Of a stretch of 32,000 nucleotides of DNA, positions 4,374 to 30,255 are shown one piece after another (positions within the stretch are counted from its first letter, which is position 1; each line of letters starts with the position of its first letter). Below the pieces are notes generated by a model, which was not told the origin of the DNA, did no database searches, and worked only from the letters and a program-made list of their open reading frames with translations. This DNA comes from Balneolaceae bacterium (GTDB taxonomy: Bacteria; Bacteroidota; Rhodothermia; Balneolales; Balneolaceae). The stretch is from positions 1,968,882 to 2,000,881 of the forward strand of contig OZ245886.1 of assembly GCA_965229525.1 (NCBI GenBank), given 5' to 3'. The position numbers and the translations under genes are program-made.

Positions 4374-5363
4374 ATGATATCATTGAAATACATATCAACA
4401 ACATTACTTCTGCTCTTTTTTGCAGTACCGCTTTTTGCTCAAGGTGATTTCGGCGAAGATCGAGCAGGAACTGAAGGATTTCAATTCACAAAGATTGCCG
4501 TTGATCCAAGAAGTGCAGCAATGGGAAATTCAAATATGGCCGATGCGTATGATGCATCAAGTTTGTATTGGAACCCAGCTCTTTCTGCTCGCTTAGAAGG
4601 GACGAATGTGATGGTAAGTCATACGGAATATTTTGCTGGAATCACTCAAAATTACATTGCTATTGTTCAACAAGCCGGTACTTTTTCTCTTGGGGGTTCG
4701 CTTCAATATTTAGGTTCGGGCGATATCACAGAAACCACGGAATTTCAACCTTTCGGAACAGGACGAACTTTTAGTACTCATCATATATCAACTGGTTTAT
4801 CAGCTTCACATAGAGTTACCGACTTGTTCAGCTATGGAATCACGGTTCGGTTTTTGATGGAAAAAATTGAGGAAATTCAGTACACAAGTGGGGCAATCGA
4901 TTTTGGATTTTCCTACTTAGTAGGAGACACAGGACTTCGATTTGCGGTTGGAATTAACAATTTCGGATTTGATGCATCACCTACTGGAACTACTACAAGA
5001 AATACCTTAGATGGTGTTATTGAGGTGGAACCGGAAGAACAGCAATCTTTACCAACAAGGTTTTTAATTGGTGCTGCTTACGATTTAATCGACCGTGATG
5101 AGACATCACTTGTAGTTACAGCGCAAATCACCAATCCAAGTGATAATGCTGAACAGTTCAATATTGGTGCTGAATATGGATTTATGAACCAGTTTTTTGT
5201 ACGAACGGGTTATGAATTCGGCATCGAAGAAAGACGTATTCCTAGCCTCGGAGCTGGTGTTAAATTACCAGTTATTAATAGAGAAATCAGAGCAGATTAT
5301 TCATACTCTTTGTACGAGCGTTTAGGTGAAATCCATAGAATTGCAATTAGTGTGTCACTTTGA
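4374..5363 (+). CDS. PorV/PorQ-family (FadL-like) outer-membrane beta-barrel protein
   Basis: The ATG directly abuts the upstream stop (4373|4374). Signal peptide ends in FAQ. The N-terminal motif GTEGFQFTKIAVDPRSAAMGNSNMADAYDASSLYWNPALSA matches the PorV/PorQ family signature as I recall it. The rest has an alternating beta-strand pattern. Confidence 0.7.
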   Translation: MISLKYISTTLLLLFFAVPLFAQGDFGEDRAGTEGFQFTKIAVDPRSAAMGNSNMADAYDASSLYWNPALSARLEGTNVMVSHTEYFAGITQNYIAIVQQAGTFSLGGSLQYLGSGDITETTEFQPFGTGRTFSTHHISTGLSASHRVTDLFSYGITVRFLMEKIEEIQYTSGAIDFGFSYLVGDTGLRFAVGINNFGFDASPTGTTTRNTLDGVIEVEPEEQQSLPTRFLIGAAYDLIDRDETSLVVTAQITNPSDNAEQFNIGAEYGFMNQFFVRTGYEFGIEERRIPSLGAGVKLPVINREIRADYSYSLYERLGEIHRIAISVSL

Positions 5364-6637: not shown

Positions 6638-6648
6638 ACGCTTGATCT

Positions 6649-7857
6649 ATGAATCGATGGATCGTCCTGAGTCTTTGTTTAGTTCTTGGATGTACTTCAC
6701 CAGATTCTGTTCCTAACAAAGTTCTTCTTGTTTCATTTGATGGATTTCGCCATGACTATCTCTCCAAGACTGATACTCCAAACTTTGATCAACTGGTTGA
6801 AAATGGGGTATTAAGTGAAGGATTGATTCCTATTTATCCTTCTTCAACTTTTCCGAATTACTATGCAATAGCAACAGGATTATATCCCGAGAATAACGGT
6901 TTCATCAGTAATTCGATGTACGACAGTACCATTGGATCCTGGTTTTCTATGGGTGATCGAGCGCAAGTTGAGAATCCTGCATGGTACAGCGGCGAACCAA
7001 TTTGGAATACCGCTGAGAAGCAAGGCGTTCGTGCCGGAACCATGTTTTGGGTAGGATCAGAAGCACCTATACAGAATATGCAACCAACACACTGGAAACC
7101 ATACGACGGTTCTATGCCAAATACAGATAGGATAGATTCTGTGTTATCGTGGATGACTTTAGGAAGTGAAAAGGAAATTGATTTGGGGACACTGTATTTC
7201 TCCTTTGTTGATGGAGTAGGTCACGATTACGGTCCTGAATCCGAGGAAATAATTACGGCAATTCAACAAGCTGATTCGTTGATTGGTTACTTAATGCAGC
7301 AAATCAAAATGGTTGGTTTGCAAGATCAAGTAAACCTAATAATTGTTGCCGATCATGGGATGGCGCAGAATTCAAGAGATAAAATCATCTATATCGATGA
7401 TTATATACACTTTGAAGATTTAGATATTTATTCATGGGGAACTAGTTTTTCACTTCGTGGAGATGCAGAAACTATTAGGGGTCTGTATCAACTATTAAAG
7501 CCAAATGAAGACAGGTTTAAGGTGTATAAAAAAGAAGATATTCCGGATAGATTTCGAGTAAAGAATTCACCTCGATTCCCGGATTTATTAGTTATTCCAG
7601 AGTCGGGCTATTTGATAAGTTCGAGAGGATATGCTGAGTCGAGAGAGAATTACGCAACGGGTGGTTCTCATGGATATGACAACCAGGCCAGAGATATGCA
7701 TGGTTTATTCCTGGTTTATGGACCGGACTTCAAAAATGGCCAAAGTATTAGTGAGATAGAAAATGTACATATCTATGAGTTGATTACTCACCTACTCAAA
7801 ATCGAATCAGCTGGGACTGATGGTTCTTTTGATGCTATAAAATCTGTACTTCGTTAG
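6649..7857 (+). CDS. Ectonucleotide pyrophosphatase/phosphodiesterase (NPP family, alkaline-phosphatase superfamily) lipoprotein
   Basis: Lipobox LVLGC. NPP signature LLVSFDGFRHDYL...TPNFDQL...PSSTFPNYYAIATGLYPENNGF, in which the Thr of TFPN is the expected nucleophile. Metal-site motifs VADHGM and GGSHGYDN. Confidence 0.88.
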   Translation: MNRWIVLSLCLVLGCTSPDSVPNKVLLVSFDGFRHDYLSKTDTPNFDQLVENGVLSEGLIPIYPSSTFPNYYAIATGLYPENNGFISNSMYDSTIGSWFSMGDRAQVENPAWYSGEPIWNTAEKQGVRAGTMFWVGSEAPIQNMQPTHWKPYDGSMPNTDRIDSVLSWMTLGSEKEIDLGTLYFSFVDGVGHDYGPESEEIITAIQQADSLIGYLMQQIKMVGLQDQVNLIIVADHGMAQNSRDKIIYIDDYIHFEDLDIYSWGTSFSLRGDAETIRGLYQLLKPNEDRFKVYKKEDIPDRFRVKNSPRFPDLLVIPESGYLISSRGYAESRENYATGGSHGYDNQARDMHGLFLVYGPDFKNGQSISEIENVHIYELITHLLKIESAGTDGSFDAIKSVLR

Positions 7858-19134: not shown

Positions 19135-19476
19135 ATGAAAAAATACATGTTAATATTAATGGATAATACAGACAGTTATTCCGAAATGACTCAACAGGAT
19201 TATCAAAATGAGATTGAACTCCATGGAAAGTGGATCCAGGAACTTGGCGACCGTTATGATTCTGGTGAAGCTTTAGAAGAAGACACTAAAATTATTAAGG
19301 GGAAAGAGCTGGTTGTAACGGATGGTCCTTTTATAGAGTCTAAGGAGTTAGTAGGTGGTTTTTACATACTTCGAGCACATAGTTTGGAAGAAGCCACAGA
19401 ACTTGCAAAAGGATGTCCAACGTTACGACTTGGAGGAAGGGTTGAAGTTCGGCCGGTAATGCATTTAGAAATGTAA
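19135..19476 (+). CDS. YciI-like / DGPF-domain protein (paralogue 1)
   Basis: MKKYMLIL..., VTDGPFIESKELVGGFYIL and GGRVEVRPVM. The DGPF motif and ~113-aa size are typical of the family. Confidence 0.85.
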   Translation: MKKYMLILMDNTDSYSEMTQQDYQNEIELHGKWIQELGDRYDSGEALEEDTKIIKGKELVVTDGPFIESKELVGGFYILRAHSLEEATELAKGCPTLRLGGRVEVRPVMHLEM

Positions 19477-19507
19477 ACTAAATAACGTCTATACTAACAA
19501 AGAAACT

Positions 19508-19849
19508 ATGAAGAAATACATGCTAATTTTATTTGAGTCTGGTGAAAGTTATGCTACCATGAGCCCAGAAGATTACCAGAAAGAAATAGAAGCACACAGT
19601 ATTTGGATCCAGAAGTTAGGTGATCACTATGATTCTGGGGAACCATTAGAACGAGGAGCAACCTCTGTTAGGGGTGTTAATAAACTTGTTACCGATGGTC
19701 CATACATAGAATCGAAGGAATTAGTGAGTGGATTCTACATCCTCAACGCAAATAGTCTGGAGCAAGCAACTGAGCTATCAAAAGGTTGTCCAATCCTTCG
19801 ATTGGGTGGATCATTGGAAGTTCGTCCAATTATGCATATATCCATGTAG
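19508..19849 (+). CDS. YciI-like / DGPF-domain protein (paralogue 2)
   Basis: 73 of 113 residues are identical to paralogue 1 in my hand alignment. VTDGPYIESKELVSGFYIL. The TAG stop is immediately followed by the ATG of the sigma gene. Confidence 0.85.
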   Translation: MKKYMLILFESGESYATMSPEDYQKEIEAHSIWIQKLGDHYDSGEPLERGATSVRGVNKLVTDGPYIESKELVSGFYILNANSLEQATELSKGCPILRLGGSLEVRPIMHISM

Positions 19850-21115
19850 ATGACCTCTTCAGCAAAATTAATGGATCATCTTTTTCGCCAACAATCGGGA
19901 AAGATGAATTCCATTCTCATTAATAGTTACGGCTTCGAATATTCCGAATTAATTGATGATGTAATTCAGGAGACTTTCCTAATTGCACTAAAACAGTGGG
20001 GAATGAAAGGGGTGCCGGATAACCCGGAAGGGTGGTTGATGCAGGTATCAAAAAACAAATTCCTGAATGAAATTAATCGCCTTAAAAGACATTGTAAATT
20101 AAACGTAAAATCTATCGAGCATTCTGAATTGGATGGGTTCCCAGAAACCTTGAGCGATAACCGATTCAAACAGGAACAACTAAGAACATTGTTTTCTTGT
20201 TGCACGCCTCAAATATCAGCTAAAGCTCAAATCATGCTCACTTTAAAAATAGTTTCTGGATTTGGGGATCGTGAAATTGCTAAAGCACTATTAATGAAAG
20301 AACAAGCAGTTAGGAAAGCCATCTATCGGGCAAGAAATACTATTAAAGAAATAGGTGAATCTGCACTTGTTGTGTCCCGATCTGATTATAAAGACAGGCA
20401 AGAGATTGTGTTGAAAATACTTTATTTGATGTTTAATGAAGGATATCATTCATCTTCTGGGGACAAACTACTCGATGAGGACATTACTTTCGAAGCGATA
20501 CGATTGACAAGTTGGTTACTTGAAATCGAATATTTAAATCACAGTACAATCCATGCTGTACTAGCTTTGATGTTCTTCAATTTCTCAAGATTTGATGCTC
20601 GATTGAACAAAAATGGAGAGATTATGGATATCGAGCAACAAGATCGAAGTACGTGGAGTAAAGAACTCATCCAAAAAGGTATGTACCATCAAAAGAAATC
20701 AAGAGAAACAGAAGCCTTAACAAATTACCATATAGAAAGTGGAATAGCAGCGGTTCATTGCTTATCACAAAGCTACGATGATACAAATTGGGCACAGATT
20801 GCTAATTATTATGAACGATTAATGACTTTTGATTCATCTTCACAAGTACAGATTAATTTCGCAATTGCCCTTTCCGAAAATGGTGAATCATTACAAGCTC
20901 TCAACATATTAAAAGGTATTGATCAAAAGGGATCAGACAATAAAAGTCTATTATTTGGTGCGATGGCAAGGGTGCATCGAAATTTAAGGCAGATTGAATT
21001 GGCAACATCATACTACAAAGTAGCACTAGATATGACGGAAAATGACAATGAGAGAAAATTCTATGAGGCTAAAATTGCAAATCTGCTTCTAAATACAGAC
21101 CGTCTAAATAATTAA
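19850..21115 (+). CDS. ECF-type sigma-70 family factor with a long C-terminal TPR-like extension (ECF42-like)
   Basis: Region 2: DDVIQETFLIALKQWGMKGVPDNPEGWLMQVSKNKFLNEINRLKR. Region 4: GFGDREIAKALLMKEQAVRKAIYRARNTI. A ~220-aa helical-repeat extension follows: YHIESGIAAVHCLSQSYDDTNWAQIANYYERL...INFAIAL. The DGPF neighbours match the known ECF42 context. Confidence 0.85.
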   Translation: MTSSAKLMDHLFRQQSGKMNSILINSYGFEYSELIDDVIQETFLIALKQWGMKGVPDNPEGWLMQVSKNKFLNEINRLKRHCKLNVKSIEHSELDGFPETLSDNRFKQEQLRTLFSCCTPQISAKAQIMLTLKIVSGFGDREIAKALLMKEQAVRKAIYRARNTIKEIGESALVVSRSDYKDRQEIVLKILYLMFNEGYHSSSGDKLLDEDITFEAIRLTSWLLEIEYLNHSTIHAVLALMFFNFSRFDARLNKNGEIMDIEQQDRSTWSKELIQKGMYHQKKSRETEALTNYHIESGIAAVHCLSQSYDDTNWAQIANYYERLMTFDSSSQVQINFAIALSENGESLQALNILKGIDQKGSDNKSLLFGAMARVHRNLRQIELATSYYKVALDMTENDNERKFYEAKIANLLLNTDRLNN

Positions 21116-21131
21116 TCTTCTTCTATACTGA

Positions 21132-21149
21132 TTGTGGATAAATCCACAA
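21132..21149. promoter_or_regulatory. Perfect 8-bp-arm palindrome ttgtggat-aa-atccacaa, 17 nt after the sigma-gene stop (weak terminator or operator; function unknown)
   Basis: Read directly: 21132-21139 is the reverse complement of 21142-21149. It lies in the AT-rich 214-bp spacer upstream of the FliG-like operon. Confidence 0.4.
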
Positions 21150-21329
21150 AATTTTAGACCATTTTTGTTCATCATTGCAATATGAGCAGTTTTAAGTAGT
21201 TTTTAATCAGTATAAATACGTAGTTTTTAAAATAATAATGTGGAAAACTTAAAAAATTTGTGCATACTTACCCCTCTTTAGTAAAAATTAAAAAATTACA
21301 GGCTCTAATTTACTCTACAGGGGTTTGAA

Positions 21330-23174
21330 ATGGTTGGGAAAACACATAAATGGCTATTAGTACTGGCACTTGCCTTTATCACCAAAGGTTTATTTGCTCA
21401 AACATTACCGGGACAAGTTGTATCACCTGATGTTCAGGAAGAAGCTGCAAAATACGAACAGTATTATGAGGTAGTACTAAATAACGCACTTTCTGATTAT
21501 TATCGGAAAGGTACATTCATTGTTGATGCAAAAGTAACACTCGAGAGAGTACTAGTACCAAGAGGCTATGAAGTTGTAGAAGGTGATGAGCCAATAAGAA
21601 TAGAAAATTTGCCTGGACTTCCTTTTGTTCCACCCAATTTACAGCGTGAGTCGGAAGGAACTACGGATAGTTTAAAAGCTTCAGGCTTTGATGCTCAATT
21701 TAGGCTCACCCAGCTTAACATTACCGTATTGGTAGATACGTCTTACAGTGATGAAGATGTTGACTTCGTTGAAGAAGCTACCATACTAATAGCAAATGCA
21801 GATCCATTTAGGGGAGATATTGTTGCGGTAGATAAAAAAGTGTTTCCAAGAAGTGCCAGAGCAATAGAGCAGGATGTTATGGAGGCAAGACAATCGCCCG
21901 AACCAGAGCCTGTTGAAGAACAAGTTGAACGAATGGGTGCACTTGATGATGTAGCTTCATCGGAGCCTGAACCAAATATGTTTCTCGGAATTGATTGGAA
22001 TAATCCTCAACATTTACTGTATGTAGTTGGGATACTAGCAGCACTATTCTTAATAACTTTACTCTATGCACTGCTAAAACGACCGGATCAAAAAGAAAGT
22101 AGTGCTCAATTACCGTATCCGGCATTCGATGGTGTGAATCCTATGCCAGCTGTTGATCATAAAACGGATGAACCAAAAGGACCAGATGCAAAAACGCTTG
22201 CACAATTTGAAGAAGATAAAACATTCGTAACGAATAACTGCATCAGTCACCCGGATGCCATTGCAGATTTAATTGGACAATGGATTGCGAGCGACGACGA
22301 ACAAGGTATAATTCGATCTGCAAAGTCGTTAGCAGGTGTGGATGAAAAACTAATAAATGTATTAGAACCACATATGAAAGTAGAAACTTTTGATGCGGTT
22401 AAATTTGCAATCAACAATACAGAACCCTCTACTCTTGATGAGAAAATTGAAGAAGTTAAAGCGTTCCGAAAAAGTATTCAGCAGGTTAATACCAAAAATG
22501 GAGCTTCCGATTCTGGCTCCAATCTATTCGATTTTGTATATCAATTAACCGATGTACAACTCCAGCATTTGATTAAAGAAGAATCTGATGAATTAGTTGC
22601 AATTCTTCTCGCACAGATTGCTGGCGAAAGAGCGGGGGTAATTCTTCAAAAACTCGATGACCAAAAAAGAATATCGATTTTGTTGAAGATGGGTAAAATC
22701 AACAATATTCCAATTTCGGTTTATAAGAAAGTTGCCGCCCACTTTTCGAATAAAGCGCTATCCGTTTCTGATATGAAATATGTGGCAGCGGATGGAATTG
22801 ATTCAATCCTTGCGACCATTGAGACCTTACCTCTAAGCGAACAAGATGATTATGTGCGTTCCATCGCCGAACAAGATCTGAATCTTGCAAAACGTATCAA
22901 GAAGTTCTTTATCGGGTTTGATGATCTTCCCAAAGTTAAAGATGAATTATTACAGGGTGCATTAGAAGAAATTCAGACTGATATTATCATTTTGGCTTTA
23001 AAAACAGCACCAGCAGCAGTGCGAGAAAAAGTGTTGAAGGTTCGTCCAAAACGGGAGCAACAGCTTATTCTATCTGAAGTTGATAACCCCGCTGAGGTTG
23101 CAAAAGGGGCGGTCGAGGATGCTCAAAAAACACTGTTATATGCCGTTAGGCGAAAAATGAAAACTGAGGCGTAG
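21330..23174 (+). CDS. Bitopic inner-membrane protein: periplasmic ~200-aa domain, one TM helix and a cytoplasmic full-length FliG-like (N/M/C) region
   Basis: Signal peptide or anchor MVGKTHKWLLVLALAFITKGLFAQ. Periplasmic part with beta-rich segments TFIVDAKVTLERVLVP and RLTQLNITVLVDTSYSDEDVDFVEEATILIANADPFRGDIVAVDKKVFP. P/E-rich linker. TM helix LLYVVGILAALFLITLLYALL (aa ~228-249). FliG_M-like EESDELVAILLAQIAGERAGVILQKLDDQKRISILLKMGKINNIPISV. FliG_C-like AKRIKKFFIGFDDLPKVKDELLQGALEEIQTDIIILALKTAP..VREKVLKVRPKREQQLILSEVD...VEDAQKTLLYAVRR. Confidence 0.7.
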   Translation: MVGKTHKWLLVLALAFITKGLFAQTLPGQVVSPDVQEEAAKYEQYYEVVLNNALSDYYRKGTFIVDAKVTLERVLVPRGYEVVEGDEPIRIENLPGLPFVPPNLQRESEGTTDSLKASGFDAQFRLTQLNITVLVDTSYSDEDVDFVEEATILIANADPFRGDIVAVDKKVFPRSARAIEQDVMEARQSPEPEPVEEQVERMGALDDVASSEPEPNMFLGIDWNNPQHLLYVVGILAALFLITLLYALLKRPDQKESSAQLPYPAFDGVNPMPAVDHKTDEPKGPDAKTLAQFEEDKTFVTNNCISHPDAIADLIGQWIASDDEQGIIRSAKSLAGVDEKLINVLEPHMKVETFDAVKFAINNTEPSTLDEKIEEVKAFRKSIQQVNTKNGASDSGSNLFDFVYQLTDVQLQHLIKEESDELVAILLAQIAGERAGVILQKLDDQKRISILLKMGKINNIPISVYKKVAAHFSNKALSVSDMKYVAADGIDSILATIETLPLSEQDDYVRSIAEQDLNLAKRIKKFFIGFDDLPKVKDELLQGALEEIQTDIIILALKTAPAAVREKVLKVRPKREQQLILSEVDNPAEVAKGAVEDAQKTLLYAVRRKMKTEA

Positions 23175-23177
23175 ATC

Positions 23178-24257
23178 ATGAAAAAGGTTTTCATTTTATG
23201 CGCTAGCCTACTTTTATGTATAAGTGGGCATACGTTTGCGCAAGATCATGAGAGTGGTGTTCCATATCAAATGGGGCAGATTTTTGAGCAAATGGTAGAT
23301 CAGATAAATGATGTGCCGGTAAATATTCGCAGAGTGGCAGTATATAAATTGAATTATAACGCCATGCGATTTACGGTTCAAGAAGTGGAGTTTATTAGAG
23401 GAGAGCTTGAAGCTGCTTTTAGAGAATTTGCCGGATTAACTGTTTTATCACCACCTGAGTTAGAACCCAATGATAAAATGAAGATCATTGGAAACGATAG
23501 TACCTTACAAATTCTCAATATTCAGGGACGATCTCTGGCTGATGTTTCTCCGGAGCTGTTAACTGAAATTGCTTCGAATTATGGGGTACAGGGGTTACTA
23601 GAAGTAAGCATGCAAAAGAGGTCACCAGATGGATTAATTCTTTCATTAAGAATGATAAGTCCACGGTCTCGTGAAATTGTGTGGACTAAAAGTTTTATCT
23701 CAAATCCATTCAGAGTGGAATTAGAAGTCGACAAAGGATTTACTTCGGTACTAAAGTTTGGAGCGGGTACTATTGAAGCAGAGTCTATTACTCGGGCCGA
23801 TACAAGTTTTGCAACCCCAGATACAGCGATAGGTAAACCAGTCGTAAATTATTCTGTATCATTTACCTATCGGCAGCCAATTAATCTAGATAACAGTGCT
23901 TATATAGGTTTTACAGGTGGAGTAAATATCCTTCGGTCTGCAAGTGATAGTAATTTCGACTTAACAATGATAGAACTTGGTGCTACCTATTATCAGGCTA
24001 TCACTGAGAAGAATGAAGACATAAATGACTATCGAGTTATGCTGTTTTTTAATGGTAACATTAAGTTTCCAATTAACAGTACAAAAGGTGAATTCTATTC
24101 ATTTAAACCTGGTGTCATGTTCAATATGAGTAAAAACTTAGGGTTGATACTTTATACTGATTTGATCATATCGGGTGAGACTTTAACATTAGAAAACAAC
24201 GACAAAATTACATACGGTAAGGTTGGATATGGATTACAGGCAGTTGTTAGATTCTAA
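23178..24257 (+). CDS. Outer-membrane protein: periplasmic alpha/beta domain (CsgG/LpoB/FlgO-like pattern) plus a C-terminal small beta-barrel
   Basis: Signal peptide ends in FAQ. N-domain RRVAVYKLNYN...FIRGELEAAF...GVQGLLEVSMQKRSPDGLILSLRMISPRSREIVWTKSF. The C-terminal ~175 aa have alternating amphipathic strands and end in GYGLQAVVRF (terminal Phe). Start is 3 nt after the upstream stop. Confidence 0.6.
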   Translation: MKKVFILCASLLLCISGHTFAQDHESGVPYQMGQIFEQMVDQINDVPVNIRRVAVYKLNYNAMRFTVQEVEFIRGELEAAFREFAGLTVLSPPELEPNDKMKIIGNDSTLQILNIQGRSLADVSPELLTEIASNYGVQGLLEVSMQKRSPDGLILSLRMISPRSREIVWTKSFISNPFRVELEVDKGFTSVLKFGAGTIEAESITRADTSFATPDTAIGKPVVNYSVSFTYRQPINLDNSAYIGFTGGVNILRSASDSNFDLTMIELGATYYQAITEKNEDINDYRVMLFFNGNIKFPINSTKGEFYSFKPGVMFNMSKNLGLILYTDLIISGETLTLENNDKITYGKVGYGLQAVVRF

Positions 24258-24852
24258 ATTATTATTAGCAATACTTTGTATTGGCTTATCGATTTCCGCT
24301 TGTAGATCAGCTGGGAATGTGCAAGAACAAATTGATGCAGCTATTGAGGCAAGTGAACCAACAGAAACCACCGGTAATGTTGAGACTAACTTACTCGAAG
24401 GAGAGGCTCGAAGTAATCCGATTATTGTATCCTATAGAAATGCTAGTTCCAATATTCAGATTTCATTAGACCCAGACCAGGATGAATTTTATTTGGATTT
24501 AAAAGGGATTACCCCAACTGAAAAAGATTCCATAATTGTTGTTGATACTACGATTATTAATAATCGAGCCACCGATATTCAGACGCTATTATCTAGCTAC
24601 AGAAAAGCGCAAGATTTATTCTATTTAGGAGAATATCGAGATGCCTTAGCCGAAGTGGATAAAACTCTGGAAATACAAGAAACGGCAGATGCATATGCTT
24701 TAAAAGGTACCATCTTTTTTATGATGGAAAATCCCTCTGCAGCTAGAGCAAATTGGGATATGGCTGTAAGAATGGATCCAAATATTCCGGTACCAAGTAT
24801 TCCGGAATTGGAAACACTAATTAATGAAATACGTGAGGATGGGGGCCAATGA
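24223..24852 (+). CDS. Lipoprotein with C-terminal TPR repeats
   Basis: Lipobox LSISAC. TPR-like AQDLFYLGEYRDALAEVDKTLEIQETADAYALKGTIFFMMENPSAARANWDMAVRMDPN. Start is ATG 24223, ATG 24229 or TTG 24244; all overlap the upstream gene. Confidence 0.7.
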   Translation: MDMDYRQLLDSKLLLAILCIGLSISACRSAGNVQEQIDAAIEASEPTETTGNVETNLLEGEARSNPIIVSYRNASSNIQISLDPDQDEFYLDLKGITPTEKDSIIVVDTTIINNRATDIQTLLSSYRKAQDLFYLGEYRDALAEVDKTLEIQETADAYALKGTIFFMMENPSAARANWDMAVRMDPNIPVPSIPELETLINEIREDGGQ

Positions 24853-25670
24853 AACTTTCACTAACTAATATACTAGGGGTATTTTTTAGTATAGGGATAC
24901 TAATTTTTGGGATTACAGAGACTTTGGAAGTAACCAGTGTATTGAGCAATATTCCGTTTCTTACCAATTATACCTTTTTAAATCTACCAAGCTTATTTAT
25001 CGTAATGGGCGGTATTCTAAACGCTGTGTTTATAACCTATCAACCAAGATATGTAGGGCAGGCTTTCTTCAATATTTTATTTTTATTTAGTCAGGCCAAA
25101 ACTTCAGCTAGAACTTTAGAAAACGATCTTGGCGAAATGTTGACCTGGAATGATCAGATTAAAAGTGATCGTGTTAAAGCTTTAGGCCGGTTAGAAGAAG
25201 AACATACTGGGCAAGTTGCCGGTTATCTATTTTCTTTAATGAGTACAAATTACTCAAACGAGGATATTAAAGAGTTTGGTTCTAATCATATAGAAGAACA
25301 TTATTTTCGTCAATTAGTTGTTGTTGATGTATTACGTGCAATGGGTGCCGCTGCGCCATCTTTTGGGATGTTCGGTACTTTATTTGGTCTGGTGGTAATG
25401 CTAGGTCAGCTTGAAAACCCATCTGGAATGGGGCCTGGACTTGCAGCCGCATTGATTACGACACTATATGGAATTTCTTTAGCACGATTCATTTTCTATC
25501 CAATCGCGGAAAAAATTAAAAACATAGCGCAATTAAATCGCTTTCGTGAATACTTTATCCTGGAAGGTGTATTATTGATTAATGAGCGCAAATCATCGTT
25601 TTATTTACAGGATCGACTTAGCACGTATCTACGAAGAGATTTCAAAAACAATCAAAAAGCTGAAAATTAG
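24849..25670 (+). CDS. MotA/PomA-type stator ion-channel subunit (MotA/TolQ/ExbB superfamily)
   Basis: ATGA overlap with the upstream gene. Topology is 2 TM, a ~100-aa cytoplasmic loop, then 2 TM. Signature prolines occur in APSFGMFGTLFGLVVMLGQL and ITTLYGISLARFIFYPIAEKI. Confidence 0.88.
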   Translation: MKLSLTNILGVFFSIGILIFGITETLEVTSVLSNIPFLTNYTFLNLPSLFIVMGGILNAVFITYQPRYVGQAFFNILFLFSQAKTSARTLENDLGEMLTWNDQIKSDRVKALGRLEEEHTGQVAGYLFSLMSTNYSNEDIKEFGSNHIEEHYFRQLVVVDVLRAMGAAAPSFGMFGTLFGLVVMLGQLENPSGMGPGLAAALITTLYGISLARFIFYPIAEKIKNIAQLNRFREYFILEGVLLINERKSSFYLQDRLSTYLRRDFKNNQKAEN

Positions 25671-25681
25671 CAGGTGACATT

Positions 25682-26359
25682 GTGATTGGTCGTAATTACA
25701 GTGGAAATTCAGATATCACAGAAGAACACGAAGAGGATCAGGAATGGTTGCTCACCTATAGCGACATGATCACGCTTCTATTAGCCTTCTTTGCAATGCT
25801 GATTGCCGTTTCATATGTAGATCTCAATTTATGGGAGCAAATGAAACAAGGTTTACGGTCAGAGATTTCGAAAGAAGAAAATGTTCGTACACCACTTGCT
25901 GAGGTAAAAGCAGATCTTGATCAATTATTAGCTGTTGAAAAAGCGCAAGGATTAGTAGATATCATTTTAGATAGAGAGGGTATTAAACTGTTTTTCTCAA
26001 GCAGCTCTTTTTATAATTCTGGTGAGGCTGATTTGTTACCTACAGGTCAGGGAATTATTGATAAGGTTACACAAGCCATGAATGCCCTAGATTTCTACAA
26101 TTTCAATGTCGATGTGGAGGGTCATACTGATAATGTGCCGATTAATACGCCAATTTATCCATCAAACTGGGAGTTATCAGTTGCAAGAGCGTCTGGGGTA
26201 GTAAAATATTTTATCGAAGATGGTATAGAAGCAGAACGATTAAAAGCCTCTGGATATGCTGATACGAAACCGGTAGTTCCACATGTTGATGAGCAGGGTC
26301 AAAATATCATAGAAAATCGTGCCCTTAATCGCCGTATTGTAGTTCGAATTTACTATTAA
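25682..26359 (+). CDS. MotB/PomB-type stator subunit with an OmpA-like peptidoglycan-binding domain
   Basis: N-terminal WLLTYSDMITLLLAFFAMLIAVS, with the channel Asp (D28) encoded at 25763-25765. C-terminal GHTDNVPI...SNWELSVARASGVVKYF...ASGYADTKPV...NRALNRRIVVRI. GTG start. Confidence 0.88.
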   Translation: MIGRNYSGNSDITEEHEEDQEWLLTYSDMITLLLAFFAMLIAVSYVDLNLWEQMKQGLRSEISKEENVRTPLAEVKADLDQLLAVEKAQGLVDIILDREGIKLFFSSSSFYNSGEADLLPTGQGIIDKVTQAMNALDFYNFNVDVEGHTDNVPINTPIYPSNWELSVARASGVVKYFIEDGIEAERLKASGYADTKPVVPHVDEQGQNIIENRALNRRIVVRIYY

Positions 26360-26412
26360 TTTCCAGAGGCACTAAATCATAAAAATCAGAGTTAGTAGTT
26401 CTAAACTCGCCT

Positions 26413-29349
26413 ATGCAAAAAAAGCTACTAGTTCTATTATTTTCTCTTCTCGCAAGTGTACATTCGCAAGCTCAGTTTAACACAGATTCTTTATCAAATA
26501 TAGTCAGGGGAAAAAGTCTACTTCAGCAAGACATACTTAGAGTACTTTCAGGAATTCACCCAGGGTTGCAAATTACATCAACAGGCGGTTTGACTGGTTC
26601 AGGGACTAACGCACTCATTAGAGGATATACAAGCCTGAATGCCACAAGCAATCCATTAATAATAGTAGATGGAATTAGGTTCGACGGTCAAAACAATCAA
26701 AATAGCAGCACCTTTACAGGTGGAGGTACGTTAACCACTCCAAATCGAAGTATTGATATTAACGCTTCCGAAATAATAGATATAAAAGTACTAAACTCTC
26801 TATCGGCAACAGTTCGTTATGGGGAGGAAGCCAGAAATGGTGTAATACTGATCACAACCAAAAGATCACAAAATAATCTAAGAGAAGACAAGCTGGAGAT
26901 TTCCTATCAACAGGGTTTCTATAATACGGTAATAAGTAGTCGTCCACACTATCAGAATAAATATGGAATGGGTTTCAATGGTATCAATTCTGGTACTTTT
27001 AGTTCATGGGGACCCGAATTTTTAGTAACGGATGAAGCTAGCTTTAATACAAATTTTGCAGGTTTTGATTCTGATGGAACCGTATTACTTAATCACCCAT
27101 TAACCGGACATGAATTTACAGCATTAGCATTTCCAGAATTTGCGACCGCAACCTACAGATACGAAGCAAAACCCAACGCCATTGACGAATTTTTTAAGAA
27201 TGGATTTGCATCAACAACTCAATTAGGGGCTAATTATCGAACTGGAAATTATTTTTTAAATGTAAATTATGCCGGAAGTTGGGAAGATGGTTTTACCCCA
27301 GAGAATTCATTACAACGGAATAATATTGGAGCAAATTTTAGCTATCCACTAATTGAAAATGTTCACGGAAGATCTTCCTTACAATTAGTCTATACTGATA
27401 TTAAATCGCCAGTTCTAAGTGCAGGTAGTGGTAGCGGCAGGGTTCAAAGCTCGGCCGGGCCTAGCGTTTTTTCTGATGTTTTTTATACACCAAGATCTAT
27501 AGGATTCGATTTCCCCTATCAAAATCCGGATAATGGCGGATCAGCTTATTACAGAGTCGGAAACGATATTCTAAATCCAAGATGGACAATTGACAATACA
27601 AAAAGCATGAATAGTAGTAACAGGATTTTAGGATACACCGAAGTGCTGTTTACTCCAACTGATCGATTTGAAATACTGTACAATTATTCATTCGAAAGCT
27701 ACGATGAAGATCAGGAATATAGATTGAACCCTTCGTTAGCTACCAATTATCCTTTTCCATCAGGGTTATATCAAACGATAGATGTAACCAGAATTTTCTA
27801 TGAGCAATTATTACTCTTTAAACTAAAGAAACTTGAATTTGGGCAACTAACTTTAAATGTAGATGCCGGTTTAAATTATATATCAGAGACTATTGAAGAG
27901 GAGGGTCTTGAAAGTATTGATATTCGCGATTTGGGAATTTTCAAGCACAGTAATTTTAGAACTCAGTTACCTATAAGTTCTTTTACTAGTGAGTTATTTG
28001 CTCGGGAATTCGATCGCAGATCGTTCGCGGTGTTTTCAATGGCTAACCTGGATTTCAAACATATTATTGGCGCAGAAATAGGCATTCGAGGGGTATCAAA
28101 TAAGTCGTTGCAACAGCAGGATTTAAGTGCATGGTATCCATCAATGCAGCTCGCTTACAGACCTATCAACCATTTTGATAAGCCAGTTGGTTTTTTGTCG
28201 GATGCTAAAATCGAGGTAGGATATTCCACATCAGGAAGATCCATTTTTACAGAGCAGGAGATTCTGGTTCAAGATCGTGCAAGTGTACGGGTTAATAACC
28301 AAATAAAGCCAGAGAGGTCTACTGAAAGGCAGTTGAGCTTAACACTGGGTTTTTTTGATAATAGAATCAAAATTCAATCGACATATTACAAGCAAACCCA
28401 TACGGACTTAATATCTAGAATTGCAGATAGTAGCGATCCTACTTTTTCATCCATATTAGACAACTTGATGGAAATTGAATCAGAAGGGCTGGAATTGTCC
28501 TTGTTTGCAATGCCAATTCGGAGAAAAGTTCAGTGGACGATATTCAGTAATTTTTCCAGTATAAACACAGAAGTAAAAGAATACACTGGTTCATTTAATG
28601 CCGTTCAATTAGGTAATAGTTTACCAAGTAGGGGAAATGCCGCATTGATCGACGAGCCGTTCATGGTGATGTATGGTATTCAGATATTGAAAGTTAACGA
28701 GGCCCTGAAAGAATCTAATCCTGATTTTGCCAATGTTGCCATCGGCACCCCGATTATTGATGATTTTGGAAATTATGTGCCAGGCCAGGTTGGAATCATA
28801 GGAAATCCAATCCCTAAATGGAATGCATCCATGATTCATCAGATTTCTTACCAAAATTTGGGGTTAAGTATTCAGCTCGATTATCAACATGGTGGTGATA
28901 TGTATAGCGCATGGATTGCATCGCTACTAGGAAGAGGAGTTGTAACCGAGACAACCAAAGATGATCGAAACGAAATGTTTATAGTCGAAGGTGTTGGATT
29001 TGATGGTGAGCCGAATGACGTAGAAATCAGTTCACAGCAATATTACTTCAATAATATATTGATTGGACCAGATCAGGCGCGTGTTTTTGATATGACTCAT
29101 TTTCGCATTTCTTATATCAGTTTAGATTACGACTTGCCCGGTAAATGGCTAGAAAATAGTAGAATTCAACAGGTAAATATTTCCATTTCGGTAGAAAATG
29201 CCTTTCTAACAATGCCGAATATTCCCGATGGGTTAGGATTTGATCCTAATGTAAATTCAAATGGAGCAGGGGTTAACAATCTAGGTTTTGAGTACTTAAC
29301 GGGGCCAGGTGCGCGAAGATTCGGGGGAGCTATACGTGTGAAATTTTAA
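26413..29349 (+). CDS. SusC/RagA-family TonB-linked OM transporter, orphan (no SusD partner, no N-terminal carboxypeptidase-regulatory-like domain)
   Basis: Signal peptide ends in SQAQ. Plug motifs NALIRGYTSLNATSNPLIIVDGIRFDG and IKVLNSLSATVRYGEEARNGVILITTKR. Long barrel ending in GGAIRVKF. It starts 53 nt after motB, with no hairpin between. Confidence 0.88.
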   Translation: MQKKLLVLLFSLLASVHSQAQFNTDSLSNIVRGKSLLQQDILRVLSGIHPGLQITSTGGLTGSGTNALIRGYTSLNATSNPLIIVDGIRFDGQNNQNSSTFTGGGTLTTPNRSIDINASEIIDIKVLNSLSATVRYGEEARNGVILITTKRSQNNLREDKLEISYQQGFYNTVISSRPHYQNKYGMGFNGINSGTFSSWGPEFLVTDEASFNTNFAGFDSDGTVLLNHPLTGHEFTALAFPEFATATYRYEAKPNAIDEFFKNGFASTTQLGANYRTGNYFLNVNYAGSWEDGFTPENSLQRNNIGANFSYPLIENVHGRSSLQLVYTDIKSPVLSAGSGSGRVQSSAGPSVFSDVFYTPRSIGFDFPYQNPDNGGSAYYRVGNDILNPRWTIDNTKSMNSSNRILGYTEVLFTPTDRFEILYNYSFESYDEDQEYRLNPSLATNYPFPSGLYQTIDVTRIFYEQLLLFKLKKLEFGQLTLNVDAGLNYISETIEEEGLESIDIRDLGIFKHSNFRTQLPISSFTSELFAREFDRRSFAVFSMANLDFKHIIGAEIGIRGVSNKSLQQQDLSAWYPSMQLAYRPINHFDKPVGFLSDAKIEVGYSTSGRSIFTEQEILVQDRASVRVNNQIKPERSTERQLSLTLGFFDNRIKIQSTYYKQTHTDLISRIADSSDPTFSSILDNLMEIESEGLELSLFAMPIRRKVQWTIFSNFSSINTEVKEYTGSFNAVQLGNSLPSRGNAALIDEPFMVMYGIQILKVNEALKESNPDFANVAIGTPIIDDFGNYVPGQVGIIGNPIPKWNASMIHQISYQNLGLSIQLDYQHGGDMYSAWIASLLGRGVVTETTKDDRNEMFIVEGVGFDGEPNDVEISSQQYYFNNILIGPDQARVFDMTHFRISYISLDYDLPGKWLENSRIQQVNISISVENAFLTMPNIPDGLGFDPNVNSNGAGVNNLGFEYLTGPGARRFGGAIRVKF

Positions 29350-29709: not shown

Positions 29710-29733
29710 GTGCCAGAAGTAGTAAATCTATCA

Positions 29734-30255
29734 ATGGCAGAAAAACCAGCACTTGAAATTGTTTTATCAAAACTCTTCAAAGAAGATGTGTTCAAATTTA
29801 TGCAGGAGTATCCCGAGGAATTTGAATCAATTCTTGAATTAAGTATTACCGATGATAAACCAATCTGTTGGCGGGCAGCCTGGGTAGTTCAAAACTTCAT
29901 GGAAAGAGATGATCAGCGGGTGAGACCTTACGTTGATCTCATGCTTGAAATCATTCCTCAAAAAGAAGATGGTCATCAACGAGAATTGCTAAAGATTCTT
30001 TCAAATATGAACCTGGATGATGATCGACAAAGTATTCTGTATGATGAATGTGTGACTATCTGGGAATCTGTTCGAAAAAAACCGGGTACTCGATATATTG
30101 CATTTCTACAAATGGCTAAGATGGTAGAAAAATATCCTGAATTAATTCAGGAAATACACGCTGTTACTCAGCCGCAGCATATAAATACGTTAAGTCCTGG
30201 AGTGAAACAGGGAGTTCTTCGAACATTGGCTGAGTTAGAAACATTAAGTAGTTAA
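29734..30255 (+). CDS. Hypothetical all-helical protein (possibly HEAT/ARM-like)
   Basis: ORF with helical-repeat-like composition: WRAAWVVQNFMERDDQRVRPYVDLMLEIIPQKEDGHQRELLKILSNM. I prefer ATG 29734 to the GTG 29710 in the ORF track, which abuts the terminator T-tract. Confidence 0.55.
   Translation: MAEKPALEIVLSKLFKEDVFKFMQEYPEEFESILELSITDDKPICWRAAWVVQNFMERDDQRVRPYVDLMLEIIPQKEDGHQRELLKILSNMNLDDDRQSILYDECVTIWESVRKKPGTRYIAFLQMAKMVEKYPELIQEIHAVTQPQHINTLSPGVKQGVLRTLAELETLSS

What the first reader, a model, noticed from the sequence alone, without database searches (positions are those of the whole stretch)
21330..26359. Orphan flagellar-motor-like module: membrane-tethered FliG-like protein, OM barrel, TPR lipoprotein and MotA/MotB stator, without any other flagellar gene
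Five same-strand genes are packed as an operon: a 3-nt gap at 23174|23178, a 14-35-nt overlap at 24223/24244 against 24257, an ATGA overlap at 24849-24852, and an 11-nt gap to 25682. Genes 4 and 5 are flagellar-type stator subunits rather than ExbBD or TolQR. Gene 4 has four TM helices with a ~100-aa loop between TM2 and TM3 and both signature prolines. Gene 5 has the MotB TM helix with the channel Asp (TYSDMITLLLAFF) and an OmpA-like peptidoglycan anchor. The C-terminal ~320 aa of gene 1 read as a complete FliG (details in the next finding). FliG is the only known torque-receiving partner of the MotA cytoplasmic loop. The 32 kb nevertheless contains no fliF, fliM/N, flhA/B, fliPQR, fliI, rod, hook or filament gene. 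The partners here are instead an OM beta-barrel protein and a TPR lipoprotein. Together these genes could span the cytoplasm, inner membrane, peptidoglycan and OM. I infer an ion-motive-force-driven trans-envelope machine that reuses the FliG-MotA interface for a non-flagellar task. Candidate tasks include energising an OM process, possibly the adjacent orphan SusC-like transporter, or moving a surface structure. Known 5:2 motor families are flagellar MotAB, ExbBD, TolQR, GldLM/PorLM, AglRQS and ZorAB. I know of none outside the flagellum that is paired with a FliG-like protein.
Basis: partly seen in the sequence, partly recalled or inferred. Interest (0 to 1): 0.9.

Follow-up and report, generated by a model that had tools for sequence, protein, structure and literature searches.

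The report
Flagellar rotor-stator core without a flagellum
Five co-transcribed genes in a marine Balneolaceae bacterium encode the torque-generating core of the flagellar motor plus two outer-membrane partners but no flagellum, and the same undescribed gene set recurs in many bacteria, including a cultured non-motile one.

Summary
ORFs, gaps and overlaps are exactly as stated. Gene 1 carries FliG_C and FliG_M above Pfam cut-offs and aligns over a full FliG. Genes 4 and 5 are PomA/MotP- and MotB-type stator subunits with the channel Asp, plug, both prolines and an OmpA domain.

One new point: the periplasmic half of gene 1 is homologous to the FliF MS-ring RBM3 domain. Gene 1 is therefore a natural FliF(RBM3)-TM-FliG fusion, a one-polypeptide rotor.

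Gene 2 is an 8-stranded outer-membrane (OM) barrel with a TolB-N/LpoB-like periplasmic domain. Gene 3 is a TPR lipoprotein.

All five genes keep the same order in 31 of 31 Balneolaceae loci, including non-motile Gracilimonas tropica, which is reported to lack flagellar-assembly genes. They also keep it in 6 of 9 loci sampled at 20-35% identity. A Marinimicrobia variant has separate FliF-like and FliG genes. The SusC neighbour is not conserved.

All five genes are under purifying selection. I found no description in the literature.

Best reading: an ion-driven (probably Na+) non-flagellar rotor-stator machine coupled to the OM, with unknown output. I could not scan the window's own genome for flagellar genes.

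The parts
21330..23174 (+). Gene 1: FliF(RBM3)-TM-FliG fusion protein (614 aa), the putative one-polypeptide rotor subunit
   Evidence: ORF. Full-length homologues at 20-91% identity, with 112 clusters (50% identity level) at E<1e-30, mostly about 600 aa. dN/dS about 0.03-0.04.
21330..21398 (+). Gene 1 signal peptide (aa 1-23), predicted cleavage A23|Q24
   Evidence: Read from the sequence. Q24 is invariant in alignment A1, and the 'AQ' is kept in the broad-family consensus. Genes 2 and SusC have the same A|Q site. Cleavage itself is inferred.
21402..21869 (+). Gene 1 periplasmic FliF-RBM3-like ring-building domain (aa 25-180) with an inserted loop carrying the near-invariant LPGLP motif
   Evidence: 34 of 50 family members hit Pfam YscJ_FliF_C, best E 8e-7. 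The family profile finds only FliF in the PDB, at E 0.008 and 0.018. Foldseek matches FliF S-ring/RBM3, SpoIIIAG and PrgK. The AF2 secondary-structure order is alpha-beta-[loop]-beta-alpha-beta, at low pLDDT.
22014..22079 (+). Gene 1 transmembrane helix (aa 229-250), followed by the K/R-rich start of the cytoplasmic linker
   Evidence: Hydrophobic stretch LLYVVGILAALFLITLLYALL followed by KRPDQK. AF2 helix 226-249 with pLDDT 75-86.
22185..23171 (+). Gene 1 cytoplasmic complete FliG-like region (aa 286-614: N, M and C domains)
   Evidence: Pfam FliG_C 2.7e-18 and FliG_M 1.5e-7. PDB phmmer matches to Salmonella, Thermotoga and Aquifex FliG. Foldseek E 7e-9 over about 310 columns. The equivalent of FliG R281 (R575) is R or K in 72 of 72 family members.
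23178..24257 (+). Gene 2: outer-membrane protein (359 aa). Signal peptide, TolB-N/LpoB-like periplasmic domain (aa 28-175), and 8-stranded beta-barrel (aa 190-359) ending in Phe
   Evidence: AF2 pLDDT 80, barrel above 90. Foldseek matches OmpA-TM, Ail, OmpW and NspA for the barrel, and TolB N-domain and LpoB for the N-domain. Homologues follow gene 1 in distant loci, blastp E 1e-18 to 3e-5. No Pfam family; all database names are 'hypothetical'.
24223..24852 (+). Gene 3: TPR lipoprotein (209 aa) with lipobox LSISA-C, an acidic linker, a conserved beta segment (aa 66-95) and C-terminal TPRs (aa 120-190)
   Evidence: Pfam TPR_1 and TPR_2. Homologues in distant loci at E 2e-15 to 6e-8. Conservation profile.
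24849..25670 (+). Gene 4: MotA/PomA-type stator A subunit (273 aa)
   Evidence: Pfam MotA_ExbB. NCBIfam best match MotP (1e-32) and PomA (3e-27) over the full length. PDB best match PomA 8bri at 2e-21, against ExbB at 0.009. Equivalents of PomA P151, T158, T186 and P199 are conserved in 37/37 and T185 in 36/37. A K/R stands at the PomA R88 position in 34 of 37, and an acidic cluster E116-E118 is conserved.
25682..26359 (+). Gene 5: MotB-type stator B subunit (225 aa) with channel Asp28 (codon 25763-25765), plug helix and OmpA-like peptidoglycan-binding domain
   Evidence: Pfam MotB_plug 6e-14 and OmpA 2.6e-15. NCBIfam MotD and MotS. PDB MotB from 6ysf, 8ucs and 6ysl. It is the most conserved of the five genes, at 65-95% identity across Balneolaceae.

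Best explanation
The five genes encode a self-contained, non-flagellar rotor-stator machine built from the torque-generating core of the flagellar motor.

Proposed assembly and action:
1. Gene 1 is exported by a cleavable signal peptide and becomes a single-pass inner-membrane protein. Its periplasmic FliF-RBM3-like domain is inferred to oligomerise into an MS-ring-like ring.
2. Its covalently attached FliG (N, M and C domains) is inferred to form a matching ring under the membrane. The 1:1 FliF:FliG stoichiometry is hard-wired by the fusion.
3. Genes 4 and 5 form PomAB/MotPS-like 5:2 stator units anchored to peptidoglycan. Ion flow through the MotB Asp28 channel probably uses Na+, judging from the PomA-type Thr/Thr/Thr signature and the marine host. 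The ion flow turns the MotA pentamer, which pushes on the FliG C-domain torque helix.
4. Gene 2 (an outer-membrane (OM) barrel with a periplasmic TolB-N/LpoB-like domain) and gene 3 (a TPR lipoprotein) are the outer-membrane-side partners. They act either as the load driven by the rotor's periplasmic collar or as a scaffold or bushing.

There is no export apparatus, rod, hook or filament. The FliM-binding EHPQ motif is lost, so no switch complex is expected.

Shown here: domain identities, conserved key residues, strict co-conservation, purifying selection, and presence in a non-motile species reported to lack flagellar genes.

Inferred: ring formation, rotation, ion type, and the physical link to genes 2 and 3. 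The biological output is unknown.
For: - FliG identity of gene 1.
- FliF-RBM3 identity of its periplasmic domain, from three independent lines: Pfam YscJ_FliF_C in 34 of 50 family members; a profile search of the PDB finding only FliF; and Foldseek matches to FliF S-ring, SpoIIIAG and PrgK.
- A split version in Marinimicrobia has a 628-aa protein with YscJ_FliF_C (E 2e-4) immediately followed by a 309-aa FliG with FliG_N, M and C all above cut-off, in the same cluster as MotA, MotB and TPR genes.
- The stator is of the flagellar type. All channel residues are conserved.
- The interface is partly kept. The FliG R281 equivalent is R/K in 72 of 72. MotA has K/R at the PomA R88 position in 34 of 37, and its acidic cluster is conserved.
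- Co-conservation: 31 of 31 Balneolaceae loci. Among nine loci sampled at 20-35% identity, six have the full five-gene order, two are variants with MotAB, and one lacks adjacent MotAB. Genes 2 and 3 are homologous across these loci.
- Purifying selection: dN/dS 0.02-0.2 with dS saturated.
- Non-flagellate host: G. tropica DSM 19535 carries the locus (L026). It is non-motile with 17 COG-N genes (PMC4642740) and is listed without flagellar-assembly genes (PMC9909488).
- No other flagellar family was found in the window or in the called genes of nine distant loci.
Against: - No experiment exists; ring formation and rotation are extrapolated from homology.
- The AF2 model of the periplasmic domain has low confidence (pLDDT 30-65). 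The window sequence alone gives no YscJ_FliF_C hit, and the PDB profile E-values are modest (0.008-0.018).
- Only one of the five classic FliG torque-helix charges (R281) is universal. K264 and R297 are not kept in the broad family, D288 is Ser, and D289 is acidic in 32 of 72.
- The proteins fall well below the NCBIfam equivalog cut-offs for FliG, MotP/PomA and MotB, so they are not orthologues of characterised motor proteins.
- The source genome of the window (a 3.64-Mb contig) could not be scanned for flagellar genes. Some Balneolaceae carry (incomplete) flagellar gene sets, and Balneola vulgaris was described as flagellated.
- A ring whose periplasmic face is bound to an OM-embedded barrel could not rotate freely, so the role of genes 2 and 3 is unclear.
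Confidence: 0.6

Rival explanations
1. The locus is an accessory part of an ordinary flagellum encoded elsewhere in the genome. On this reading it is an extra stator set with a FliG paralogue and periplasmic scaffold proteins, comparable to the MotX/MotY, FlgT/FlgO/FlgP or PflA/PflB accessories of Vibrio and Campylobacter.
For: Some Balneolaceae (the former Aliifodinibius) carry flagellar-assembly genes, and Balneola vulgaris was described as flagellated. I could not scan the window's genome. From my own knowledge, not tested here, TPR proteins, OM proteins and TolB-N-like domains do occur in flagellar periplasmic scaffolds.
Against: The locus is intact and conserved in non-motile G. tropica, which is reported to lack flagellar-assembly genes. 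It is also very widely represented among Marinimicrobia contigs (365 blocks). Gene 1 brings its own FliF-like ring domain, so it would compete with the flagellar MS ring rather than add to it. The FliM-binding EHPQ motif is lost. No flagellar gene appears in about 20 kb around any of nine distant loci.
Confidence: 0.1
2. The proteins descend from a lost flagellum but no longer rotate. On this reading the module is a static or force-transducing envelope bridge, for example a Tol-Pal-like OM-peptidoglycan-IM tether or a mechanosensor. MotAB would energise conformational work on the OM partners through gene 1.
For: Several features parallel Tol-Pal: a 5:2 motor, an OmpA-like peptidoglycan binder, a TolB-N-like domain in gene 2 and a TPR protein (CpoB-like, from my own knowledge). 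PMC9909488 proposes gradual loss of flagella in Balneolaceae. Most FliG torque-helix charges are not conserved. Attachment to an OM barrel argues against free rotation.
Against: The flagellar-type features that the 2025 MotAB survey ties to rotor engagement are all retained: plug, large cytoplasmic MotA domain, and OmpA-type domain (PMC12505986). So are the ring-building domain and the universal R281 equivalent. The resemblance of gene 2 to TolB is at fold level only (8-9% identity) and lacks the beta-propeller.
Confidence: 0.2
3. The locus is a decaying, functionless remnant of flagellar genes.
For: Flagellar gene loss is reported in the family.
Against: The ORFs are intact in at least 40 loci. 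dN/dS is 0.02-0.2 with saturated dS. MotB is 65-95% identical across the family. Catalytic and structural residues are invariant. The module is conserved across phylum-level distances.
Confidence: 0.03
4. The locus is a Zorya-like anti-phage system built on a MotAB-type motor.
For: Gene 5 matches ZorB models in PADLOC, E 1e-19.
Against: Those matches reflect generic MotB homology. Gene 4 has no ZorA hit, there is no ZorC/D/E-like gene, and genes 1-3 have no PADLOC hit. The locus sits in stable chromosomal synteny, not in a defence island.
Confidence: 0.02

Closest known systems
Flagellar basal-body rotor and stator (FliF MS-ring + FliG + MotAB/PomAB)
   Same: The module has homologous domains for the RBM3 ring-building domain, the full FliG (N, M, C), and a 4-TM MotA with a large cytoplasmic domain and both prolines. 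MotB has the channel Asp, plug and OmpA-like anchor. The R281-equivalent Arg on the FliG torque helix and the charged MotA loop are conserved.
   Different: There is no export gate, ATPase, rod, hook, filament, FliM/FliN, or FliF RBM1/RBM2. FliF-like and FliG parts are fused in one chain. The EHPQ motif is lost. All scores fall far below equivalog cut-offs. The partners are an OM barrel and a TPR lipoprotein. The module is present in a non-motile species.
Engineered FliF-FliG fusion proteins (e.g. PDB 8z4d/8z4g, 'Flagellar M-ring protein, FliG')
   Same: MS-ring protein and FliG are covalently linked at 1:1. The PDB fusion chain is matched by gene 1 (E 2.4e-10), and its S-ring region by the model.
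   Different: Those fusions are laboratory constructs of complete FliF within a full flagellum. Gene 1 is natural, keeps only an RBM3-like domain, and has a cleavable signal peptide instead of FliF TM1.
Other RBM ring proteins: SpoIIIAG, T3SS SctJ (PrgK/MxiJ)
   Same: The periplasmic or intermembrane ring-building alpha-beta-beta-alpha-beta fold has an insertion, as in RBM3 and SpoIIIAG (weak Foldseek matches).
   Different: None of these is joined to FliG or driven by a MotAB stator.
Non-flagellar 5:2 motors: ExbBD-TonB, TolQR-TolA(-TolB-Pal-CpoB), GldLM/PorLM, AglRQS, ZorAB, SiiAB
   Same: In each, an ion-driven inner-membrane motor is coupled to a process at or beyond the outer membrane. 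A TolB-N-like domain, a TPR protein and an OmpA-like domain recall Tol-Pal components.
   Different: Those motors act on an elongated periplasmic transducer (TonB, TolA, GldM, ZorB tail), not on a cytoplasmic FliG ring. Gene 4 matches ExbB and TolQ only marginally (E 1e-3 to 1e-2), and ZorA not at all.
Periplasmic scaffolds of elaborated flagellar motors (Vibrio FlgT/FlgO/FlgP, MotX/Y; Campylobacter PflA/PflB)
   Same: OM-associated proteins, lipoproteins and TPR proteins sit around a rotor-stator core. This resemblance comes from my own knowledge and is a lead only.
   Different: No sequence match to these families was found. They always accompany a complete flagellum.

Membership tests
FliG (flagellar rotor/switch protein) | FliG_C and FliG_M domains above Pfam gathering scores | tested here: met
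   FliG_C 66.7 bits against 23.3, and FliG_M 32.0 against 25.
FliG (flagellar rotor/switch protein) | Complete N-M-C architecture | tested here: met
   phmmer aligns aa 305-609 to Aquifex FliG 20-319, and Foldseek aligns about 310 columns to full-length FliG. The Pfam FliG_N hit itself is 24.9 against 25 and is misplaced on the M region.
FliG (flagellar rotor/switch protein) | Orthology: NCBIfam TIGR00207 equivalog cut-off | tested here: not met
   79.2 bits against a cut-off of 226.7.
FliG (flagellar rotor/switch protein) | Charged torque-helix residues (E. coli K264, R281, D288, D289, R297) | tested here: inconclusive
   In the window protein these are K558, R575, S582, E583 and A591. Across 72 family members only the R281 equivalent is universal (R67/K5), and the D289 equivalent is acidic in 32 of 72.
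FliG (flagellar rotor/switch protein) | EHPQ motif for FliM binding, and co-occurrence with fliM/fliN | tested here: not met
   EHPQ aligns to ESDE, and only the Glu is conserved. No FliM or FliN is present in the window or in the sampled loci.
FliF (MS-ring protein) | RBM3/collar region (Pfam YscJ_FliF_C) | tested here: inconclusive
   The window fragment alone gives no hit. 34 of 50 family members hit, best E 8e-7. The family profile finds only FliF in the PDB, at E 0.008 and 0.018. Foldseek probability is 0.99 to FliF S-ring chains, but from a low-pLDDT region.
FliF (MS-ring protein) | RBM1/RBM2 (Pfam YscJ_FliF) and two flanking TM helices | tested here: not met
   There is no YscJ_FliF hit. 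The periplasmic part is only about 200 aa. The N-terminal hydrophobic segment looks like a cleavable signal peptide.
Flagellar-type stator MotAB/PomAB (the 'FIT' group of PMC12505986) | A subunit: 4 TM helices, large TM2-TM3 cytoplasmic domain, two conserved prolines, best match to flagellar rather than Exb/Tol proteins | tested here: met
   MotP 1e-32 and PomA 3e-27 over the full length, against TolQ and ExbB at about 1e-3. PDB PomA 2e-21 against ExbB 0.009. P170 and P218 are invariant.
Flagellar-type stator MotAB/PomAB (the 'FIT' group of PMC12505986) | B subunit: channel Asp, plug helix, OmpA-like peptidoglycan-binding domain | tested here: met
   MotB_plug 51.8 bits, OmpA 57 bits, and D28 aligned to the MotB channel Asp.
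Flagellar-type stator MotAB/PomAB (the 'FIT' group of PMC12505986) | Orthology to a characterised stator (NCBIfam equivalog cut-offs) | tested here: not met
   113 against 394 (MotP), 96 against 341 (PomA), 157 against 283 (MotD).
Flagellar-type stator MotAB/PomAB (the 'FIT' group of PMC12505986) | Drives a flagellum (genome encodes export apparatus, rod, hook, filament) | not testable with these tools
   A whole-genome scan of the source genome was not possible. The literature reports no flagellar-assembly genes in G. tropica, which carries the orthologous locus.
Zorya (ZorAB + ZorC/D/E) | ZorA-type A subunit with long tail, plus Zor effector genes | tested here: not met
   PADLOC gives no ZorA hit for gene 4 and no hit for genes 1-3. 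Only generic ZorB/MotB similarity appears for gene 5.
Tol-Pal | TolQ/TolR/TolA, TolB with beta-propeller, Pal lipoprotein | tested here: not met
   TolQ matches only at E 1.7e-3. Gene 2 shares only the TolB N-domain fold at 8-9% identity and has a barrel, not a propeller. There is no TolA-like gene.

The most novel reading that the evidence does not exclude
This is a previously unrecognised, widespread class of bacterial rotary machine. A minimal FliF/FliG ring is turned by MotAB-type stators, works without any flagellum, and delivers torque or force to an outer-membrane barrel and TPR-lipoprotein pair. It is found in Balneolaceae, Marinimicrobia (SAR406), Calditrichota-like and 'deltaproteobacterial' lineages.

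If the family branches outside, rather than inside, the flagellar FliF, FliG and MotA clades, it could be a surviving relative of the rotor-stator module from which the flagellar motor was assembled, and not merely a leftover of flagellar loss.
Probability: 0.45. Interest if true: 0.95.

Novelty: new variant of a known kind. Interest (0 to 1): 0.82.

Why it matters
FliG is known only as the torque-receiving part of the flagellum. [quoted passage not shown]

This locus gives that question a concrete, testable object:
- It is a conserved five-gene module in which a FliF-FliG rotor and a flagellar-type stator are partnered with outer-membrane proteins instead of an axial structure.
- It occurs in abundant marine lineages and in a cultured, sequenced, non-motile strain (Gracilimonas tropica DSM 19535), so genetics and cryo-ET are feasible.
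- It would add a new output class to the 5:2 motor superfamily.
- It bears directly on how the flagellar motor was assembled in evolution, that is, whether rotor and stator can function without the type III export core.

Tried and rejected
- Sigma-70 promoter and terminator scans over 20900-26600 were at chance level. They are also not suited to Bacteroidota-type promoters.
- A second large protein search with the diverse family alignment A2 returned essentially the same Balneolaceae set, because of the word-index pre-filter. It added only NCBI names ('FliG C-terminal domain-containing protein', 'hypothetical protein').
afdb50 was not available for the gene 2 model. One contig look-up failed.
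- Cluster look-ups gave taxonomy for only a few distant members. The canonical-length 331-aa 'FliG' hits sit on 1.3-1.4-kb contigs; one shares its 90% cluster with a 589-aa member, so they are probably truncated copies of the 600-aa family. I could therefore not identify the nearest true flagellar FliG.
- phmmer of the Marinimicrobia 628-aa FliF-like protein against the PDB found nothing useful.
- SusC as a functional partner was rejected, since it is adjacent in only 7 of 31 loci.
- MgtE_N as the identity of the cytoplasmic domain was rejected (11 bits against 66.7 for FliG_C).
- Zorya and Tol-Pal membership were rejected.
- Nine full-text literature searches found no description of a non-flagellar FliG/FliF-MotAB system. 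The library omits most subscription-journal papers.

Full report
**Observation.**
- 21330-23174 (614 aa), then a 3-nt gap
- 23178-24257 (359 aa), then a 29-35-nt overlap
- 24223-24852 (209 aa), then an ATGA overlap
- 24849-25670 (273 aa), then an 11-nt gap
- 25682-26359 (225 aa)

Pfam and NCBIfam confirm the domain calls.
- Gene 1 has FliG_C (66.7 bits, cut-off 23.3) and FliG_M (32 bits, cut-off 25).
- Gene 3 has TPRs behind a lipobox.
- Gene 4 is MotA_ExbB. Its best full-length matches are MotP, PomA and MotA, while TolQ and ExbB are marginal.
- Gene 5 has MotB_plug plus OmpA.

All these proteins score far below NCBIfam equivalog cut-offs, so they are divergent paralogues, not the organism's ordinary motor proteins. 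The other ORFs of at least 100 aa in the window (23 of the 24 were scanned) encode metabolic, regulatory and TonB-receptor proteins and no flagellar family.

**Gene 1 is a FliF-FliG fusion.**
- *FliG half.* phmmer against the PDB aligns aa 340-612 to Salmonella FliG 51-318 (E 5e-14) and aa 305-609 to full-length Aquifex FliG 20-319. The AlphaFold2 (AF2) model has mean pLDDT 60, with 65-86 in the FliG part. It matches full-length FliG chains over about 310 columns, best E 7e-9.
- *Periplasmic half, structure.* After the FliG hits, the next tier of structural matches is FliF S-ring/RBM3 chains (8z5v_A and 8z4g_1, probability 0.99), then SpoIIIAG and the T3SS inner-ring protein PrgK/MxiJ. The model is poor in this region.
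- *Periplasmic half, sequence.* I therefore tested the point by sequence. N-terminal fragments of 50 diverse family members were scanned individually. 34 hit Pfam YscJ_FliF_C ('Flagellar M-ring protein C-terminal'), best E 8e-7, and no other family recurs. A profile of the same fragments finds only two PDB sequences, both FliF, at E 0.008 and 0.018. The alignment places the family's invariant RGD..V...FP over FliF's ..RGD..V....F.
- *Secondary structure.* The order is alpha, beta, a roughly 55-residue loop with a near-invariant LPGLP, then beta, alpha, beta. This is the RBM3 pattern with its inserted collar.
- *Topology.* A signal peptide ends in A|Q, the periplasmic RBM3-like domain follows, then one TM helix followed by basic residues, a variable linker, and a complete cytoplasmic FliG.

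The FliF:FliG pairing, which is 1:1 and non-covalent in flagella, is thus hard-wired here. RBM1 and RBM2, which in flagella surround the export gate, are absent.

**Stator.**
- Gene 4 aligns to Vibrio PomA (8bri, E 2e-21), with ExbB only at 0.009.
- Across 37 orthologues, the equivalents of PomA P151, T158, T186 and P199 are invariant and T185 is kept in 36. A Lys or Arg stands at the PomA R88 position in 34 of 37, followed by a conserved acidic cluster E116-E118.
- The Thr triad is the PomA-type pattern. Together with the best matches to Na+ stators and the marine or halophilic host, it makes Na+ the likelier coupling ion. This is inference.
- Gene 5 aligns to MotB of solved stator complexes. 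It has the channel Asp (D28), the plug helix and the peptidoglycan-binding domain.

**Interface.** On the FliG torque helix:
- The R281 equivalent (R575) is Arg or Lys in 72 of 72 family members.
- D289 corresponds to E583, acidic in 32 of 72.
- D288 is Ser.
- K264 is kept only within Balneolaceae.
- R297 is lost.
- The FliM-binding EHPQ motif is ESDE.

At most one or two of the classic charge pairs survive, and no switch complex is expected.

**Genes 2 and 3.** Gene 2 has no Pfam family, and every database name for it is 'hypothetical'. Its AF2 model (pLDDT 80) shows an N-terminal alpha/beta domain (aa 28-175) and an 8-stranded C-terminal barrel (pLDDT above 90) ending in Phe. Foldseek matches the barrel to OmpA-TM, Ail, OmpX, OmpW and NspA. 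It matches the N-domain to the TolB N-terminal domain and the LpoB C-domain. Gene 3 has a lipobox, an acidic linker, a conserved roughly 30-residue beta segment and C-terminal TPRs.

**Conservation.**
- *Balneolaceae.* A genome-collection scan found gene 1 relatives in 32 species, including Gracilimonas tropica DSM 19535. In all 31 loci long enough, genes 1-5 follow in the same order. MotB is 65-95% identical, MotA 58-90%, gene 1 47-88% and gene 2 37-79%.
- *SusC.* The SusC-like gene is adjacent in only the seven closest loci, so it is not part of the module.
- *Selection.* dN/dS is 0.02-0.2 with synonymous sites saturated.
- *Broader family.* An exhaustive HMMER search of 1.84 billion representatives found 112 clusters at E<1e-30. 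Most are about 600 aa and align end to end.
- *Distant loci.* I sampled nine at 20-35% identity.
  - Six repeat the order FliFG-like / about 360-aa barrel protein / TPR / MotA / MotB: L033, L034, L035, L039, L040, L041.
  - One has FliFG-like, a small TPR protein, MotA and MotB, with an OMP/TPR protein upstream: L038.
  - One, from a 'Deltaproteobacteria' MAG, has TPR, FliFG-like and a 217-aa barrel, with no adjacent MotAB: L036.
  - One, from Marinimicrobia, is a split version. Three TPR genes, MotA and MotB are followed by a 628-aa protein with YscJ_FliF_C (E 2e-4) and then a separate 309-aa FliG with FliG_N, M and C all above cut-off: L037.
- *Partners.* Genes 2 and 3 are detectably homologous across these loci.
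- *Flanks.* No flagellar family appears in the flanks of any of the nine.

**Is the host flagellated?** I could not scan whole genomes. The literature gives the following.
- G. tropica DSM 19535 is non-motile, and its genome has only 17 COG 'cell motility' genes (PMC4642740).
- A KEGG comparison of Balneolaceae lists Balneola, Fodinibius, Rhodohalobacter, G. amylolytica and G. tropica as lacking flagellar-assembly genes. The former Aliifodinibius have an incomplete set, and all are non-motile (PMC9909488).
- Balneola vulgaris was originally described with flagella (PMC5167729). I could not resolve this conflict.

The module therefore exists, intact and constrained, in at least one cultured organism without a flagellum. 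For the window's own genome this is inferred from orthology.

**Mechanism.** The best-supported reading has four steps:
1. Gene 1 forms an MS-ring-like ring carrying a FliG ring.
2. Peptidoglycan-anchored MotA5B2-type units convert ion flow into rotation of the MotA pentamer against FliG_C.
3. The rotor's periplasmic collar acts on, or turns within, the gene 2 and gene 3 outer-membrane components.
4. There is no axial structure and no switch.

Domain identities, key residues, co-conservation and selection are shown. Ring formation, rotation, ion type and contacts are inferred. The output is unknown.

The main rivals are:
- a non-rotating, Tol-Pal-like or sensory envelope bridge descended from a lost flagellum (0.2);
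- an accessory stator and scaffold for a flagellum encoded elsewhere (0.1);
- a dead remnant (0.03);
- a Zorya-like defence system (0.02).

**Comparison and novelty.** The parts are homologous to the flagellar rotor and stator, but the proteins fail every orthology cut-off. The system lacks the defining flagellar components. It differs from all other described 5:2 motor systems in acting on a FliG ring.

Nine full-text searches found no description. The 2025 MotAB survey treats flagellar-type features as specific to flagella (PMC12505986). A 2025 survey of flagellar loss explicitly leaves open whether rotor proteins in filament-less species have another function (PMC12199754). Public annotations read 'FliG C-terminal domain-containing protein', 'flagellar motor switch protein FliG' or 'hypothetical protein'.

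I rate it a new variant of a known kind (the ion-driven rotor-stator motor) with high interest. The most novel reading not excluded is an independent, possibly ancient, non-flagellar rotary machine.

Noticed in passing
window 19135-21115: Two tandem YCII-domain paralogues are followed by a sigma-70 family protein (regions 2 and 4) with DUF6596. This trio lies directly upstream of the module in seven of the closest loci and within 10 kb in about 18 of 31 Balneolaceae loci. It could be a regulator of the module or simply conserved synteny.
   Followed up: partly
window 26413-29349 (and 29710-30255): A SusC/RagA-like TonB-linked receptor scores 260 bits against TIGR04056, below the 368 cut-off. 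It has no SusD-like partner, and the downstream 181-aa ORF has no Pfam hit. It neighbours the module in only the 7 closest relatives.
   Followed up: partly
window 1410-7857: A same-strand cluster encodes a TonB-dependent receptor with a CarboxypepD_reg domain, a PorV/FadL-like OM protein, an NHL-repeat protein and a type I phosphodiesterase.
   Followed up: no
L037 392-8930 (Candidatus Marinimicrobia; protein P0425 seen in 365 collection blocks): This is a split version of the module: a 331-aa protein, three TPR proteins, MotA, MotB, a 628-aa FliF-like protein with a long charged coiled-coil-like stretch, then a separate 309-aa FliG. It is very widespread in marine Marinimicrobia contigs.
   Followed up: partly
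L036 8456-12597 ('Deltaproteobacteria bacterium RIFOXYA12_FULL_61_11'): The most distant variant (20% identity) has TPR lipoprotein, FliFG-like protein and a 217-aa barrel-only protein. No MotAB is adjacent, and a small PilZ-domain gene lies on the opposite strand just upstream.
   Followed up: partly
literature (PMC5167729 vs PMC9909488): Balneola vulgaris is recorded as motile with flagella, yet a KEGG comparison lists Balneola among genera without flagellar-assembly genes. The conflict is unresolved.
   Followed up: no
window 21330-21401, 23178-23243, 26413-26475: The signal peptides of gene 1, gene 2 and the SusC-like protein all end in ...A|Q. From my own knowledge, +1 Gln is the pattern typical of Bacteroidota signal peptidase I substrates.
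   Followed up: no
window 21877-22125 (- strand): An 82-aa antisense ORF lies wholly inside gene 1. Nothing supports it as a gene, and it is probably spurious.
   Followed up: no
window 24418-24507 (gene 3 aa 66-95): A conserved beta-rich segment (IIVSYRNASSNIQISLDPDQDEFYLDLKG) lies upstream of the TPRs. A recognisable DPxDED-type counterpart occurs in the gene 3 homologues of L033-L035. It may be a docking element.
   Followed up: partly
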